A DNA stretch of 64,000 nt. It comes from Alphaproteobacteria bacterium. GTDB taxonomy: Bacteria > Pseudomonadota > Alphaproteobacteria > Micavibrionales > UBA2020. Position 1 is the first letter of the stretch, and each line of letters begins with the position of its first letter. Below are positions 2,986 to 61,657 of the stretch, one piece after another. The stretch covers positions 138,308 through 202,307 of the forward strand of contig JAIXUW010000292.1 in assembly GCA_027483355.1 (NCBI GenBank). Reading direction: 5' to 3'. Position numbers and translations under genes: made by a program. A model generated the notes under the pieces. That model did not search any database. It saw nothing but the letters and a program-made list of their open reading frames with translations, and was not told the DNA's origin.

Positions 2986-2991
2986 TGTACA
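2986..2991. terminator. palindromic TGTACA between convergent stop codons (candidate bidirectional 3'-end signal)
   Basis: Lies between the stop at 2954-2956 (+) and the stop at 2996-2998 (-). One of six exact cases in the window. Confidence 0.4.
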
Positions 2992-2995
2992 TAAA

Positions 2996-3571
2996 TCAGA
3001 GTTCTTGAACCCTGACCGTCATTCTTGTGTACAATTGTTCCCATTTCACCATGGCATGTTCTTTGAGAACGTTCAAAAACTTTCTATAGTACGTGATCTG
3101 CGAATTGCAGCAGCAGTGCTCGCCCATGAGCGGAAGCTTTAACACGCTTGTGTTTGGATTCGTGTCGTGGATCCATTCGTCGATCGCGCACAAAACATCG
3201 GCGCAACAATAGACCGAGTTTCGAACGCAATTGCGAGCTCGTGCGCAACAAGCTTCGGTAGCTGCAAAGTGAGCCAGCTCGATGAGGTCGTTGTCGTCCG
3301 CGAACATAACAAAGAGTAGATCAGATCGGCTCTTTTCCCACCATTGTATATCGGCGCTTGTGTGACGTTCCTTTACACGATTCGCAAAGCCCGCGCGGTG
3401 CTTTTTAAACACCTCGGGTGTGAGCTCTTGATGGCCCTCCTTGATGCATTTCTCCTTTCGTGCAAGATCTTTTGGTTGAGAAATAGGCACGACGGGCGGT
3501 GTGAGATACGTCGGGTCGGACTTGGCGAAGAGAAAGTCGTTTATAACGCGTAGGCCCATCAAATGTATCAT
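2996..3571 (-). CDS. hypothetical Cys-rich protein (191 aa)
   Basis: ATG-initiated ORF. Its ATG overlaps the TGA of the upstream gene (ATGA at 3568-3571). Cys clusters present: ACCARARNC, YCCADVLC, HCCCN. Confidence 0.7.
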   Translation of the reverse strand: MIHLMGLRVINDFLFAKSDPTYLTPPVVPISQPKDLARKEKCIKEGHQELTPEVFKKHRAGFANRVKERHTSADIQWWEKSRSDLLFVMFADDNDLIELAHFAATEACCARARNCVRNSVYCCADVLCAIDEWIHDTNPNTSVLKLPLMGEHCCCNSQITYYRKFLNVLKEHAMVKWEQLYTRMTVRVQEL

Positions 3572-59049: not shown

Positions 59050-61623
59050 TTGCCTGATGCAGTGCAGGCTCCCGAGAGTCCCCGGCGAGTAGAACCGGAA
59101 GAAGCAGGCTCGGAGGAATTTTCAGACTTGGACCGTCGTGTGTTCTTGGCTGTGGCTCCATCGGACAAGTTTGCGTTTGATATCAACGACTTTTCTGATA
59201 TCCCAAAGAAGATTTACAAGTTTGGCGTGCATGCAGCTCTCTTTGTATCTCTTGGAGGGAAATTCTCATCCGCTGCGCATCTTGCCGGCACGTTTTGGAG
59301 TCTTTCGTGCTATGCTGCGATGCCGTACTACTTTCTCCAAAACATTGAGACACGTTCTTCGGTGATTAAGAACAACCCAGCGCTGTTTGAGTTGAGTCAA
59401 CGCATTGGCTCGCGTACTGCTGGACATATGATTCTTTCCACTGCTTATCGTCGAAAGGAAATGAAGAAAGATCTGCATTCGTTCTATCAAATCGGCGATA
59501 GCTTGATGATGGAGTCGGGTAAGATTGAAAATCAGGGACGGCTTTTGAAGAGTTTGATTGAGAAGAACTATATCGACCCCTCATGCGTCGAACATTTGCT
59601 AGACGAGACGAGATACGCGGCTCTTCTTGAAGACGGTGATTCTGACATGTTGAAAGCCAGCAAAATTGCGTACGCCCGATGGCTCGAGTACATGTCGTCG
59701 CCCTTGTACGAAGTGTTTTCTACTGTCGGAAAGTTGGTTCTTGATGACGATGAAAATGCCAAAAACGAGAAGGACGCCCGCCCCGAGATCGCTCCGGTGA
59801 CTTCATTCGATCAGCTCCAGACTCGGCTCCAAGAGGAAGCGCTAAGTAATCCTCGCACTGTGGCCTCGACTCTATTCTTCCGCATGCATTCGTTTGAAAG
59901 TCCCGATTGGCGTTCTCGGCATCTCCAGCCGATGGGATCCAAGTTCAACATGAAAGCGTACGAGCCCGGCGAGCCGTATTTGCACAATCTCTTTGCTTGC
60001 CCTGAAGCTTTCTCCAAGACATTTGATCTCTGTTGGAGATTCACGCATCCGAGCGACGATGGCGCGGCGCAATTGCCCGAATCCGTGAAAGCCGAATTCA
60101 ATGTCGCCGAGTCGATTCTGGCCACTCGCTACGAGTCCGATGCCAAGTTCCTCGAAGCCAACTGCATGTTTTACGACCCTGCTGCGCTTGGAGAGCGTGC
60201 CAAGCGAGTTCCCGCTCAGGCGCCTCAAGCACGACGTGCTCCTCGACCTCCGGCCGTCATTGCACCTGTTCCTATTCTTGCTCCTGCGCCTCGTGTTGCT
60301 CAGATCGAGAATCCCGATGCAGTCGAGCTCGACGGCGTTGATATTGACGAGAACGCGACGATTGACCAGCAGTTCTTTCAGCTCGTCAGCTTTATGAACG
60401 AGGCCGCTCTTGCTGGGATCAAGATTCCCCAAGTTGTGATTGATTCTGCCTGGCAACGTATTAAGAATAGGGCGGCGCCTGTTCCGGTATATCAACCTCC
60501 GCCAGCTCGGGTTTACGAAAATGCGCCTCTTTCTCCCCTCGACAACATGCCCTTGAATCACACTGTCGAATTCGACAATGAGATTGATGTTCCTGATGTT
60601 GGTGCCCCGCAAGATGACGAGCCATCTGTACAGATTCCTAAGAAACGCTCGCGTGATTCCGACGAGTCCAGACACGATGACGGTAACGACGACGACGACG
60701 CGGATCCTATCGAATTCGACAATGATAATCGGAACGCGAATCGTCGTAGAAAGTTGAGGAAACTAGGCGAGCTCGAGAATCCCGTGATCGCGCATGTCGC
60801 TCATCGCTACCGCGCTCGATTGGTTTTGGAGGACGACGACGGTGATAATATGATGGTTGACGAGAGACCACGCAAATTTGTTCGTCGTGTAGAGGCTCCT
60901 AAACAAAGTGAGAAGGAGGACAAGAGCGAGAGTGAGAGCGAGAGCGAGAGCGACGACGCCAGTCAATCATCCAATTCTCACAGACGTGGCCGCGTTCTGA
61001 TCACTTGGAAATGCGAATTTACCGACGCCGAGCTCCGTGACATGCCCGATGAAGCAGTTTGCCTGTTCAATCTTGATGTGCCCGAGGAAGACATTGCTCG
61101 AAGCGCCAAGAGACTTGTTCGCGCCACAGGCCGCAGTGCTCGCAAGCCGTTTGGAGTCAAGAAGACCGGCCACAAGATGCATACGTATTTCAAACTAGCC
61201 GAGCATTTTGCCGGACGATTCTGCGTGATGGTCACTTCGGGCAACAGCGTGGTCAGTTGGTATCTTCTCAATCACATTTTCAGCGCCTGGTGCGCTCAGT
61301 CGGCGGCTGCAAGGCGTATTATCGACGAAAGTGGAGAACATATCGACACTAAATGCCAGGAGCTCTCTCGTGGACTCGTTCACTTTTTGACCAGAAGACT
61401 CGGTCGCGGTCTTCTCTCTGGAAACGGAGGACAGGCCAATATTGCCGGCATGCACATCTCGAACTCGTGTTATGAAAAATACGTGTACGGTCGGATCAAG
61501 GTGCCTACCAAGAAGAGTCTCAAGTGGCCATGGGCGGGCTGTTTCTACGCCGCCATTGGCGCCCTGGATCTCGAAGCCATAGATCATACATTTTACTTGC
61601 CAAAAGTACAACAACAGGATTGA
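59050..61623 (+). CDS. hypothetical acidic protein (857 aa; 5' end unresolved)
   Basis: The frame opens directly after a TAG (59047-49), and the first in-frame ATG is about 90 codons in. Candidate micro-exon ACCATGGACGCG|GTACGC at 58744-58752, or ATG at 58038-style upstream start is excluded by the TAG (ATG at 59038 followed by in-frame TAG). Contains SESESESESDD and RRRKLRKL. Confidence 0.75.
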   Translation: MPDAVQAPESPRRVEPEEAGSEEFSDLDRRVFLAVAPSDKFAFDINDFSDIPKKIYKFGVHAALFVSLGGKFSSAAHLAGTFWSLSCYAAMPYYFLQNIETRSSVIKNNPALFELSQRIGSRTAGHMILSTAYRRKEMKKDLHSFYQIGDSLMMESGKIENQGRLLKSLIEKNYIDPSCVEHLLDETRYAALLEDGDSDMLKASKIAYARWLEYMSSPLYEVFSTVGKLVLDDDENAKNEKDARPEIAPVTSFDQLQTRLQEEALSNPRTVASTLFFRMHSFESPDWRSRHLQPMGSKFNMKAYEPGEPYLHNLFACPEAFSKTFDLCWRFTHPSDDGAAQLPESVKAEFNVAESILATRYESDAKFLEANCMFYDPAALGERAKRVPAQAPQARRAPRPPAVIAPVPILAPAPRVAQIENPDAVELDGVDIDENATIDQQFFQLVSFMNEAALAGIKIPQVVIDSAWQRIKNRAAPVPVYQPPPARVYENAPLSPLDNMPLNHTVEFDNEIDVPDVGAPQDDEPSVQIPKKRSRDSDESRHDDGNDDDDADPIEFDNDNRNANRRRKLRKLGELENPVIAHVAHRYRARLVLEDDDGDNMMVDERPRKFVRRVEAPKQSEKEDKSESESESESDDASQSSNSHRRGRVLITWKCEFTDAELRDMPDEAVCLFNLDVPEEDIARSAKRLVRATGRSARKPFGVKKTGHKMHTYFKLAEHFAGRFCVMVTSGNSVVSWYLLNHIFSAWCAQSAAARRIIDESGEHIDTKCQELSRGLVHFLTRRLGRGLLSGNGGQANIAGMHISNSCYEKYVYGRIKVPTKKSLKWPWAGCFYAAIGALDLEAIDHTFYLPKVQQQD

Positions 61624-61651
61624 TGTATCTTTTTTTATATATAGTTTTACT

Positions 61652-61657
61652 TGTACA
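61652..61657. terminator. palindromic TGTACA between convergent stop codons
   Basis: Between the stops at 61621-61623 (+) and 61699-61701 (-). Confidence 0.4.

What the first reader, a model, noticed from the sequence alone, without database searches (positions are those of the whole stretch)
2986..61657. Palindromic TGTACA sits between convergent stop codons: candidate bidirectional 3'-end/polyadenylation signal
Of the 9 convergent gene junctions, 6 carry an exact TGTACA within the 2-75 nt between or at the stops: 2986, 15025, 29393, 32447, 53288 and 61652. A seventh carries the extended palindrome TGTATATACA (21122). Most tandem 3' ends have TGTAAA or TGTATA within about 40 nt of the stop, for example 17341, 39925 and the 29893 stop itself in TTGTAAAT. 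A given hexamer is expected by chance about once per 4 kb, so hits in 30-75 nt spacers are far above expectation. Because the motif is palindromic, one copy can serve both converging transcripts. UGUA-type poly(A) signals are known from green algae (UGUAA) and as CFIm sites, which may hint at the host machinery.
Basis: partly seen in the sequence, partly recalled or inferred. Interest (0 to 1): 0.7.

Follow-up and report, generated by a model that had tools for sequence, protein, structure and literature searches.

The report
UGUA-type 3'-end signal, palindromic between convergent genes
Most genes in this compact, unidentified marine genome carry a TGTA(A/C/T)A motif at or just after the stop codon, probably the signal that ends and polyadenylates the mRNA; where two genes converge on a short spacer it takes the palindromic form TGTACA that both can read, a modest variation on signals already known from green algae, a chlorella virus and yeast.

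Summary
All quoted coordinates hold. After correcting for local composition, TGTA[ACT]A occurs 28 times in the 56-nt 3' flanks of 39 genes against 5.2 expected (z 10.7). TGTACA lies at 6 convergent junctions, which is 12 gene ends against 1.2 expected.

The signal reads from the transcribed strand. Tandem 3' flanks hold TGTAA 11 times and its complement TTACA never. It peaks from -20 to +40 around the stop codon, and divergent (promoter-only) spacers lack it. Eight of 24 TAA stops are embedded in NTG-TAA (background 8.7%). AATAAA is not enriched, and no hairpins form.

The palindromic form belongs to convergent ends (11 of 22, against 1 of 17 tandem) and to the shortest spacers. Two related metagenomic contigs show the same pattern, but the motif's position turns over between orthologous junctions.

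The best reading is a UGUA-type 3'-end (polyadenylation) element, consensus UGUAHA(UA). This matches the chlorophyte and PBCV-1 UGUAA signal, with palindromic sharing as in yeast UAUAUA zones.

Caveats: there are no RNA data. TGTACA is only one of several enriched AT-rich hexamers. The 8-mer consensus equals the Pumilio/PUF site. The genome (ORFan-rich, marine) remains unidentified. Interest is modest.

The parts
2986..2991 (.). TGTACA in the 39-nt convergent spacer between 1670-2956(+) and 2996-3571(-). It lies +32 and +7 from the two stops and reads TGTACATA on the + strand.
15025..15030 (.). TGTACA at the 2-nt convergent junction between 13550-15016(+, BTB) and 15019-15888(-, RING). It is +11 from the + stop and lies inside the last codons of the - gene.
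21120..21133 (.). 14-nt palindrome TATGTATATACATA, containing TGTATATACA at 21122-21131, in the 31-nt convergent spacer between 20046-21107(+) and 21139-22263(-). It reads TGTATATA on both strands.
29393..29398 (.). TGTACA in the 47-nt convergent spacer between 27446-29368(+) and 29416-29859(-), at +27 and +20 from the stops.
32434..32452 (.). TGTATATAAAAAATGTACA in the 28-nt convergent spacer between 31979-32428(+) and 32457-32906(-). TGTACA is at 32447-32452.
53288..53303 (.). TGTACATGTGTGTATA in the 46-nt convergent spacer between 48664-53271(+, 1535 aa) and 53318-53764(-). TGTACA is at 53288 and TGTATATA at 53298.
61652..61657 (.). TGTACA (TGTACATA on the + strand) in the 75-nt convergent spacer between 59320-61623(+) and 61699-63387(-).
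17326..17346 (+). TGTAAATA overlapping the TAA stop of 16071-17330, followed by a second TGTAAA at 17341.
29892..29897 (-). TGTAAA (TGTAAATA) overlapping the TAA stop of 29893-31011(-), in a 33-nt tandem spacer.
35059..35064 (+). TGTAAA overlapping the TAA stop of 33096-35063.
48645..48650 (+). TGTAAA overlapping the TAA stop of 45986-48649, in a 14-nt tandem spacer. The same arrangement is conserved in the L002 orthologue.
43782..43787 (-). TGTAAA (TGTAAATA) overlapping the TAA stop of 43783-45741(-). The converging + gene uses its own TGTATA at 43750.
39925..39942 (+). TGTAAAAGTACATGTATA, 47-59 nt after the stop of 38864-39880. The L002 orthologue has TGTAAATGTATAAAA.
41631..41636 (+). TGTAAA 27 nt after the stop of 40068-41606.
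55892..55897 (+). TGTAAA 37 nt after the stop of 55288-55857, in a 116-nt convergent spacer where each strand has its own signal.
22994..22999 (-). TGTATA (TGTATATAAA) 15 nt after the stop of 23012-23770(-).
22316..22321 (-). TGTAAA (TGTAAATA) 35 nt after the stop of 22354-22953(-).
23842..23847 (-). TGTAAA 56 nt after the stop of 23901-27272(-, SET-domain protein).

Best explanation
TGTACA is the palindromic variant of a general 3'-end element read in the nascent RNA, with consensus UGUA-H-A and often UGUAHAUA. The element sits from about 20 nt before to about 40 nt after the stop codon of most genes.

Inferred mechanism: the motif acts as the upstream element for mRNA cleavage and polyadenylation, or more loosely for transcript 3'-end formation. 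This is what UGUAA does in chlorophyte algae and in chlorovirus PBCV-1. Cleavage would fall some 10-25 nt downstream.

Tandem genes use the asymmetric forms UGUAAA and UGUAUA, frequently built into the stop codon as NUG-UAA-A. Where two genes converge on a spacer of 2-75 nt, the C variant gives a 6-bp DNA palindrome. Each strand's transcript then carries UGUACA, so a single site can end both transcripts and their 3' ends overlap by a few tens of nt.

What is shown: the enrichment, position, strand specificity, association with convergent junctions, and recurrence in relatives.

What is inferred: that the element directs cleavage and polyadenylation, which machinery (host or genome-encoded) reads it, and that both transcripts really use the shared copy.
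For: 1. Composition-corrected enrichment in 3' flanks: TGTA 41 against 17.9; TGTA[ACT]A 28 against 5.2 (z 10.7), in 25 of 39 genes; TGTACA 12 gene ends against 1.2.

2. Position: sense-strand TGTAHA gives 8, 9 and 12 hits in the three 20-nt bins from -20 to +39, against 0-2 per bin in CDS interiors. It is found in 6.5% of control CDS windows.

3. It is a 3' feature, not an AT-richness feature. Divergent spacers (40% GC, similar to convergent spacers at 37%) hold 12 TGTA/TACA in 2050 nt. Convergent spacers hold 27 in 1105 nt.

4. It is directional. Tandem 3' flanks have TGTAA 11 against TTACA 0, and TGTAAA 7 against TTTACA 0. Over all flanks, TTACA is 0 against 5.5 expected.

5. Stop codons are recruited into the motif: 8 of 24 TAA genes end NTG-TAA against an 8.7% background, p = 7e-4.

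6. The usual alternatives are absent. AATAAA is 2 against 3.1. There are no hairpins: mean z is -0.08 and no flank falls below -2. There is no sense bias for T5NT.

7. The palindrome is specific to convergent ends: TGTACA at 11 of 22 convergent against 1 of 17 tandem gene ends (p = 0.004). By junction the counts are 6 of 12 against 1 of 17 (p = 0.01). Junctions with a palindrome have spacers of 2-75 nt; those without have 62-231 nt (p = 0.005).

8. The two ATGA-overlapping upstream genes (3568-6027 and 35186-36721) lack any TGTA signal. Upstream cistrons of algal polycistronic loci likewise lack UGUAA (PMC7896298).

9. Replication in relatives. In L002 plus L006 (47-48% GC, 28-68% aa identity), TGTAHA is 13 against 3.4 (z 5.5) and TGTACA is at 3 of 10 convergent against 0 of 10 tandem ends. 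In L004, TGTA is 11 against 4.7 while TACA is 1.

10. The 8-mer TGTAHATA occurs 11 times in 3' flanks and once in 52.7 kb of CDS.

11. Precedents. UGUAA is the poly(A) signal of Chlamydomonas and Ostreococcus (PMC1868727, PMC6413133), and PBCV-1 uses it too (PMC3946568). Palindromic UAUAUA, UACAUA and UAUGUA act as bidirectional signals at yeast convergent genes (bioRxiv 10.1101/2022.11.02.514956).
Against: - No RNA evidence of any kind: no poly(A) sites, no transcript maps.
- About 30% of genes lack TGTAHA near the stop.
- Sense-strand TGTAA is not depleted inside CDS (23 against 21 under synonymous-codon shuffling), and TGTACA is mildly over-represented there (26 against 15). The short core alone therefore cannot be a sufficient signal, and context such as the UA extension or AT-rich surroundings must matter.
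- TGTACA is only the 15th most enriched hexamer in convergent spacers in an unbiased scan, and would not survive correction for about 2000 tests on its own.
- The motif is not positionally conserved. The L002 orthologue of the 53288 junction has no TGTACA (a 6-nt spacer with TTG-TAA-C), while the L002 orthologue of the 43721 junction has gained one.
- The more distant relative L005 shows no signal.
- Gene ends at convergent junctions are not independent: each palindrome is counted for two genes.
- The sample is one 64-kb window, with gene models based on ORF length only.
Confidence: 0.6

Rival explanations
1. The motif is a Pumilio/PUF-type 3'-UTR regulatory element (canonical UGUANAUA) that controls mRNA stability or translation. 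It is not the signal that makes the 3' end. The palindromic copies would then be a by-product of packing two 3' UTRs into one short spacer.
For: - The extended consensus is exactly UGUAHAUA: 11 of 29 TGTAHA instances in 3' flanks continue with TA, against 8.4% expected (p = 1e-5). The 8-mer is about 200-fold denser in 3' flanks than in CDS.
- It is sense-specific and lies in the 3' UTR, as PUF sites do. The PUF consensus is established knowledge and was not tested here.
Against: - A core motif in about 65-75% of genes is far more than a typical PUF regulon.
- Selection to fuse the motif with the stop codon, and its absence in the upstream members of ATGA-overlapping gene pairs, fit an end-forming signal better.
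- No other candidate poly(A) signal (AATAAA, hairpin, T-run) is enriched that could do the end-forming job instead.
- The UA extension is equally well read as the yeast-type efficiency element UAYAUA.
Confidence: 0.13
2. TGTACA is a double-stranded DNA site for a dimeric protein, for example a roadblock terminator, boundary factor, or restriction/modification target. On this view it is unrelated to the asymmetric TGTAAA and TGTATA motifs.
For: - It is a perfect 6-bp palindrome concentrated where two polymerases collide.
- TGTACA is somewhat over-represented in CDS relative to synonymous-codon shuffles (26 against 15).
Against: - The half-site TGTA with A or T at position 5 is equally enriched and strictly sense-oriented at tandem ends (TGTAA 11 against TTACA 0). 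A DNA palindrome reader does not explain that.
- 24 of 32 CDS copies are in one codon frame (xTG-TAC-Axx), and a z of 3.7 is unremarkable against the spread of codon-pair biases (many k-mers have |z| > 5).
- GTAC and other 4-nt palindromes occur at the expected frequency, so there is no restriction-avoidance signature.
- The motif is not conserved in place at orthologous junctions.
Confidence: 0.05
3. The motif is a termination signal for an RNA polymerase encoded by the genome itself, analogous in role to poxvirus U5NU or the mimivirus hairpin. It would not be a signal for the host nuclear cleavage/polyadenylation machinery.
For: - The statistics are the same as for the main explanation, since they do not say which machinery reads the RNA.
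- The genome is ORFan-rich and unidentified, so its own transcription apparatus elsewhere on the 292-kb contig cannot be excluded.
Against: - No RNA polymerase, poly(A) polymerase or capping enzyme domain was found in this 64 kb or in about 80 kb of related loci.
- The motif matches a cellular poly(A) signal class (PMC6413133, PMC3946568).
- The A-rich AAAA-ATG start context and simple-sequence tracts look like nuclear eukaryotic expression.
Confidence: 0.12
4. It is chance or composition: AT-rich 3' spacers, plus a post-hoc choice of hexamer by the reader.
For: - TGTACA is only 15th in the unbiased scan of convergent spacers.
- The sample is small: 6 junctions.
Against: - Dinucleotide-preserving shuffles of the flanks themselves give z = 10-11.
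- Equally AT-rich divergent spacers lack the motif.
- There is strand asymmetry, a positional peak, and independent replication in L002 plus L006.
Confidence: 0.04

Closest known systems
Chlorophyte near-upstream poly(A) element UGUAA (Chlamydomonas, Volvox, Chlorella, Ostreococcus lucimarinus; PMC1868727, PMC6413133)
   Same: The UGUA(A) core is on the sense strand close to the 3' end. AAUAAA is not used. Single-base variants (UGUAU, UGUAC) are tolerated. Compact genomes use it.
   Different: Position 5 here is A, C or T in equal measure (15/13/14), whereas A dominates in algae. Position 6 is strongly A, and a UA extension is frequent. The distance to the cleavage site is unknown. Membership of the source genome, or of its host, in the green algae is not shown.
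TGTAA poly(A) signal of chlorovirus PBCV-1, shared with its host Chlorella variabilis (PMC3946568)
   Same: A large DNA genome of eukaryotic type whose genes carry the host-type TGTAA instead of AATAAA. In PBCV-1, 72% of mapped 3' ends had the motif, similar to the 65-75% of genes here.
   Different: In PBCV-1 the motif was anchored to mapped cleavage sites (-24 to -16). Here no sites are mapped. No palindromic use at convergent genes was reported there. The present genome has no detectable similarity to chloroviruses.
Yeast bidirectional termination zones centred on palindromic UAUAUA, UACAUA and UAUGUA efficiency elements (bioRxiv 10.1101/2022.11.02.514956)
   Same: A DNA-palindromic RNA signal is shared by convergent genes with overlapping 3' UTRs. 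TATATA is itself strongly enriched here (9 against 2.1) and in relatives (z 12). UGUAUAUA and UGUACAUA contain UAUAUA and UACAUA.
   Different: The invariant part here is UGUA rather than (UA)3. The UGUAAA form, common at tandem ends, is not a yeast efficiency element. There is no evidence for an Hrp1-type reader.
Mammalian CFIm25 (NUDT21) UGUA upstream element
   Same: The UGUA tetramer is read in RNA upstream of the cleavage site.
   Different: In mammals it is an auxiliary enhancer 40-100 nt upstream of an AAUAAA hexamer. Here AAUAAA is not enriched and UGUA appears to be the principal element.
Pumilio/PUF response element UGUANAUA
   Same: The 8-mer consensus is identical (UGUAHAUA in 11 of 29 instances), and the location is the 3' UTR on the sense strand.
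   Different: The motif is present at most genes, fused to stop codons, and missing from upstream genes of overlapping pairs. That behaviour is expected of a processing signal, not of a regulon-specific site.
Mimivirus 'hairpin rule' for transcript 3' ends (cited in PMC3946568 as Byrne et al. 2009)
   Same: Palindromic sequence is associated with 3' ends in a large DNA virus.
   Different: That system needs a stable hairpin. Here palindromes are 6-14 nt, with no fold-energy signal.

Membership tests
Chlorophyte-type UGUAA poly(A) signal | UGUAA/UGUA-N enriched on the sense strand in the 3' UTR, above the composition expectation | tested here: met
   TGTAA 15 against 6.4 and TGTAHA 28 against 5.2 in 3' flanks; TTACA 0 against 5.5. 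Tandem flanks have TGTAA 11 against TTACA 0.
Chlorophyte-type UGUAA poly(A) signal | Canonical AAUAAA not used as the dominant signal | tested here: met
   AATAAA 2 against 3.1 expected in 39 flanks.
Chlorophyte-type UGUAA poly(A) signal | Motif located about 10-25 nt upstream of mapped cleavage/poly(A) sites | not testable with these tools
   No transcript or poly(A)-site data are available for this genome.
Chlorophyte-type UGUAA poly(A) signal | Genome or its host belongs to the Chlorophyta | tested here: inconclusive
   Source unidentified. Only SET, BTB, RING and RabGAP-TBC Pfam hits were found. Relatives occur only in marine metagenomes. There are no hits in IMG/VR or GTDB genomes.
Bidirectional (palindromic) poly(A) signal as in yeast termination zones | DNA-palindromic signal preferentially located between convergent genes | tested here: met
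   TGTACA at 11 of 22 convergent against 1 of 17 tandem gene ends (p = 0.004); 6 of 12 against 1 of 17 junctions (p = 0.01); shorter spacers where a palindrome is present (p = 0.005). TATATA is also enriched.
Bidirectional (palindromic) poly(A) signal as in yeast termination zones | Symmetric sense and antisense 3' ends on the two sides of the motif | not testable with these tools
   Requires strand-specific 3'-end sequencing.
Mimivirus-type hairpin rule | Stable hairpin-forming palindrome at the transcript 3' end | tested here: not met
   MFE z-scores of 80-nt 3' flanks have mean -0.08, with 0 of 39 below -2, the same as the CDS control. The longest palindrome is 14 nt.
Poxvirus-type early termination signal (U5NU) | TTTTTNT enriched on the sense strand downstream of genes | tested here: not met
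   At tandem ends, T5NT is in 4 of 17 and the antisense form in 8 of 17.
Pumilio/PUF response element | 8-mer UGUANAUA in 3' UTRs | tested here: met
   TGTAHATA occurs 11 times in 3' flanks against 1 in 52.7 kb of CDS; extension p = 1e-5. A sequence match only.
Pumilio/PUF response element | Bound by a PUF protein and restricted to a regulated subset of mRNAs | not testable with these tools
   No binding data. The core motif is present at about 65-75% of genes, which argues against a restricted regulon.

The most novel reading that the evidence does not exclude
An undescribed, ORFan-rich lineage of large marine DNA elements, probably nuclear-replicating viruses, has compacted its genome by turning the green-algal UGUAA poly(A) signal into a 6-bp palindrome, UGUACA. 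One copy would terminate both genes of a convergent pair in spacers as short as 2 nt. The UGUA grammar would then point to a chlorophyte, perhaps a mamiellophyte picoalga, as the host of a lineage with no other host clue.
Probability: 0.25. Interest if true: 0.5.

Novelty: new member of a known kind. Interest (0 to 1): 0.3.

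Why it matters
If confirmed by 3'-end mapping, the motif gives a practical rule for annotating gene ends in this otherwise unreadable genome and its relatives. It also offers a rare host clue for an uncultured lineage, because UGUA-type signals without AAUAAA are typical of chlorophyte algae and of one of their viruses. 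Finally, it would be a second, independent example, after yeast UAUAUA, of a palindromic poly(A) signal shared by convergent genes under selection for compactness. It would not change how 3'-end formation is understood. The unidentified genome around the motif is probably more interesting than the motif itself.

Tried and rejected
Motif alternatives tested and rejected:
- Hairpin rule: no fold-energy signal and only 6-14-nt palindromes.
- AAUAAA: not enriched.
- Pox-like T5NT: no sense bias.
- Restriction-site-type avoidance or excess of 4-nt palindromes, including GTAC: none.
- Avoidance of TGTAA or TGTACA inside CDS, as expected for a sufficient poly(A) signal: not seen. The apparent depletion of AATAAA in CDS (2 against 11.7) is not special, because many T|A-junction k-mers are equally depleted under the codon-shuffle null.

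Attempts to identify the genome, none of which gave a name:
- Pfam on about 40 ORFs gave only SET, BTB, RING and RabGAP-TBC.
- PHROGs gave nothing, and PDB sequence searches gave nothing.
- There are no tRNA or Rfam hits.
- Three homologue searches found only the source contig (NCBI, 292,368 bp, unnamed) and a few marine metagenome relatives.
- Exact look-ups of the NCBI proteins returned no locus.
- Cluster members carry no useful names.
- The IMG/VR, JGI metagenome and GTDB scans gave 0, 1 and 0 loci.
- An exhaustive HMMER search with the RabGAP-like protein found only 9 relatives.
- Single-sequence AlphaFold of the 887-aa conserved ORF failed (pLDDT 34). The 1535-aa ORF exceeds the size limit.
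- One relative's contig had no DNA on file.

Origins considered and set aside:
- A mamiellophyte small outlier chromosome. Those are dominated by glycosyl- and methyltransferases and lack synteny between species (PMC3491373). Neither fits here.
- A microsporidian origin. Those genomes use AAUAAA (PMC2803860).

Literature searches for TGTACA as a poly(A) element found nothing relevant.

Full report
CONTEXT

The window is 48% GC with even composition. A simple ATG-ORF model gives 50 ORFs of at least 70 aa covering 90% of the sequence, on both strands, with spacers of -4 to about 250 nt. There are no tRNA genes and no Rfam matches.

Of about 40 ORFs scanned, only four have clear Pfam domains, all of eukaryotic type:
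- SET in 23901-27272(-)
- BTB in 13550-15016(+)
- RING in 15019-15888(-)
- RabGAP-TBC in 42350-43720(+)

The 1535-aa ORF is identical to an unnamed NCBI protein on a 292,368-bp contig. Its only relatives, at about 69% identity, are in Tara, ENA and Logan marine metagenome assemblies.

Four related loci were recovered: L002, L006, L004 and L005. They share a conserved gene block equivalent to window positions 35-53 kb, at 25-68% amino-acid identity, and they are equally poor in known domains.

I could not name the organism. It looks like a large DNA virus or similar element of a marine protist, but that is inference.

THE OBSERVATION

All coordinates in the finding are correct. TGTACA lies in or at six convergent junctions (2986, 15025, 29393, 32447, 53288, 61652). 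A seventh junction holds TGTATATACA (21122), which is part of the 14-nt palindrome TATGTATATACATA.

- I count 10 convergent junctions between ORFs of at least 140 aa, and 12-14 with smaller ORFs, not 9.
- The hexamer is not rare. It occurs 42 times, once per 1.5 kb, against about 10 expected from dinucleotide shuffles.

Thirty-two copies are in coding sequence, and 24 of those sit in the single frame xTG-TAC-Axx, so they reflect codon usage.

The concentration at 3' ends is nonetheless real. Per kb, TGTACA occurs 4.5-5.4 times in convergent spacers, 1.1 in tandem spacers, 0.5 in divergent spacers and 0.56 in CDS. Against dinucleotide-preserving shuffles of the 3' flanks themselves, it is at 12 gene ends against 1.2 expected (z 10.5). 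Counting junctions, 6 against 0.6 gives p = 4e-5.

A fair caveat: in an unbiased hexamer scan of convergent spacers against the whole-window rate, TGTACA ranks only 15th. It falls behind TATAAA, TATATA, TGTATA and ATGTAC.

THE BROADER MOTIF

De novo k-mer counts on the sense strand around stop codons single out TGTA (46 against 10.7), ATGTA, TGTAAA, TGTATA, TATATA and TATAAA. Aligning the 43 TGTA instances gives this picture:
- Position 5 is A, C or T in equal measure (15/13/14, with G once).
- Position 6 is A in 29 of 43.
- The following positions show a weaker T-A preference.

TGTA[ACT]A is found within -6 to +62 of the stop in 27 of 39 genes of at least 140 aa, against 6.5% of equal-sized CDS windows. 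Composition-corrected, it is 28 against 5.2 (z 10.7).

Its position is sharp. The three 20-nt bins from -20 to +39 hold 8, 9 and 12 hits, while CDS interior bins hold 0-2.

It is a 3' feature rather than an AT-richness feature. Divergent spacers, which are as AT-rich, are at background.

It is directional. At tandem 3' ends, TGTAA occurs 11 times and its complement TTACA never, and TGTAAA occurs 7 times against 0 for TTTACA.

Eight of 24 TAA-terminated genes end NTG-TAA, so the stop codon is part of TGTAA (8.7% expected, p = 7e-4).

The two genes whose stop overlaps the next start codon (ATGA at 3568-3571 and 36718-36721) have no TGTA signal at all.

Eleven of 29 flank instances extend to TGTAHATA (8.4% expected, p = 1e-5). 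That 8-mer occurs once in 52.7 kb of CDS.

THE PALINDROME

TGTACA is at 11 of 22 convergent gene ends and 1 of 17 tandem ends (Fisher p = 0.004). The single tandem case is the ATGTACA start of the next gene. By junction the counts are 6 of 12 against 1 of 17 (p = 0.01).

The seven junctions with TGTACA or TGTATATACA have spacers of 2-75 nt. The five without have spacers of 62-231 nt and usually carry a separate TGTAAA or TGTATA for each strand (Mann-Whitney p = 0.005).

RELATIVES

L002 and L006 are 47-48% GC and their spacers cannot be aligned with the window's. They repeat the pattern:
- TGTAHA is 13 against 3.4 (z 5.5).
- TGTACA is at 3 of 10 convergent ends and 0 of 10 tandem ends.
- TATATA has z = 12.

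L004 (55% GC) keeps a sense-biased TGTA (11 against 4.7, with TACA only 1). L005 shows nothing.

At nine orthologous gene ends shared by the window and L002, seven or eight have a TGTA-type motif in both genomes, but its form and place change. The 53288 junction has TGTACA in the window and TTG-TAA-C in a 6-nt spacer in L002. The 43721 junction has TGTATA plus TGTAAA in the window and TGTAAATGTACA in L002. Presence is maintained while sequence turns over, as expected for a short functional signal.

MECHANISM

The most economical reading is a cis-element for mRNA 3'-end formation that is read in the RNA. It is of the UGUA class that replaces AAUAAA in chlorophyte algae, including Ostreococcus (PMC1868727, PMC6413133), and that chlorovirus PBCV-1 shares with its host (PMC3946568).

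Three alternative classes of 3' signal fail:
- AATAAA is not enriched.
- 3' flanks have no excess secondary structure.
- Pox-type T5NT shows no sense bias.

Shared use of a palindromic signal by convergent genes has a documented precedent in yeast. There, UAUAUA, UACAUA and UAUGUA sit at the centre of bidirectional termination zones (bioRxiv 10.1101/2022.11.02.514956). The lack of the signal after upstream genes of overlapping pairs parallels algal polycistronic loci (PMC7896298).

Three things are not shown:
- that cleavage and polyadenylation occur near the motif;
- which machinery reads it;
- that both converging transcripts use the shared copy.

WEAKNESSES AND RIVALS

Sense-strand TGTAA is not avoided inside genes, and TGTACA is mildly over-represented there under a synonymous-codon null. 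The 5-6-nt core therefore cannot be sufficient on its own. The rarity of the 8-mer in CDS suggests that the functional unit is longer.

That 8-mer, UGUAHAUA, is also the Pumilio/PUF consensus. A 3'-UTR regulatory element therefore remains a live alternative, at about 0.13. Its near-universal presence, its fusion with stop codons and the absence of any other end-forming signal argue against it.

A DNA-level palindrome reader is unlikely, because the asymmetric forms are strictly sense-oriented. Chance is largely excluded by the shuffles, the divergent-spacer control and the replication in relatives.

NOVELTY

This is a further instance of a known class of signal. It has a slightly different consensus (H rather than A at position 5, and a UA extension), and its palindromic use parallels yeast. 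I found no paper describing TGTACA in this role. Without RNA data the claim is statistical.

Interest is modest, at 0.3. The unidentified, ORFan-rich lineage that carries the motif is the more unusual thing in this window.

Noticed in passing
window 1-64000; L002, L004, L005, L006: The genome itself is unusual. About 90% of ORFs have no Pfam, PHROG or PDB match. The only domains are SET, BTB, RING and RabGAP-TBC, plus F-box and 2OG-Fe(II) oxygenase in relatives. All relatives come from marine metagenomes. A core block (window 35-53 kb, including the 887-aa and 1535-aa proteins) is conserved at 25-68% identity across contigs of 47-55% GC. No capsid, polymerase or other hallmark gene was seen, so the lineage could not be named.
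   Followed up: partly
window 53800-61620, compared with L002 15104-15248: About 8 kb of the window has no counterpart between the orthologous flanking genes in L002, so it is an insertion or deletion. It holds small ORFs, the 189-aa, 551-aa and 767-aa genes, and an ORF-free stretch.
   Followed up: partly
window 57913-59050: A 1.1-kb stretch has no ORF over about 100 aa, in an otherwise 90%-coding window. It contains a 23-nt tandem repeat (2.4 copies) at 58141-58196. A second ORF-free gap of 625 nt lies at 17706-18330.
   Followed up: no
window 3568-3571 and 36718-36721: Two same-strand gene pairs overlap by ATGA (stop and start). The upstream gene of each pair has no TGTA-type motif, which suggests bicistronic transcription units.
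   Followed up: partly
window, 5' flanks of most ORFs (e.g. 16071, 21139-22263(-), 37852, 45986, 63635): The start codon context is strongly A-rich (AAAA-ATG, often preceded by C-rich runs such as CCCAAAAATG). No promoter motif was sought.
   Followed up: no
window 39891-39908, 31898-31909, 61676-61691; L002, L004 and L006 3' spacers: Simple-sequence tracts lie in the spacers: (CG)9, C12 and (CA)4(GA)4. Relatives have (GT)n, (CA)n and (TA)n runs directly after stop codons.
   Followed up: no
window 42350-43720 (+): The RabGAP-TBC-like protein is extremely divergent. An exhaustive HMMER search of 1.84 billion representative proteins found only 9 hits at E < 1e-3. All are unnamed metagenomic proteins, and ordinary cellular TBC proteins do not reach the threshold.
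   Followed up: yes
window coding regions: Under a synonymous-codon shuffle, many k-mers that span a T|A codon junction or contain an out-of-frame TAA, TAG or TGA are 2-4-fold depleted (TTAAG, TTTAA, ATTAA, GATAA, AATAAA, ATTAAA). TTCAA, TCAAA and CATTTG are about 2-fold enriched. Codon-pair bias in this genome is therefore strong.
   Followed up: no
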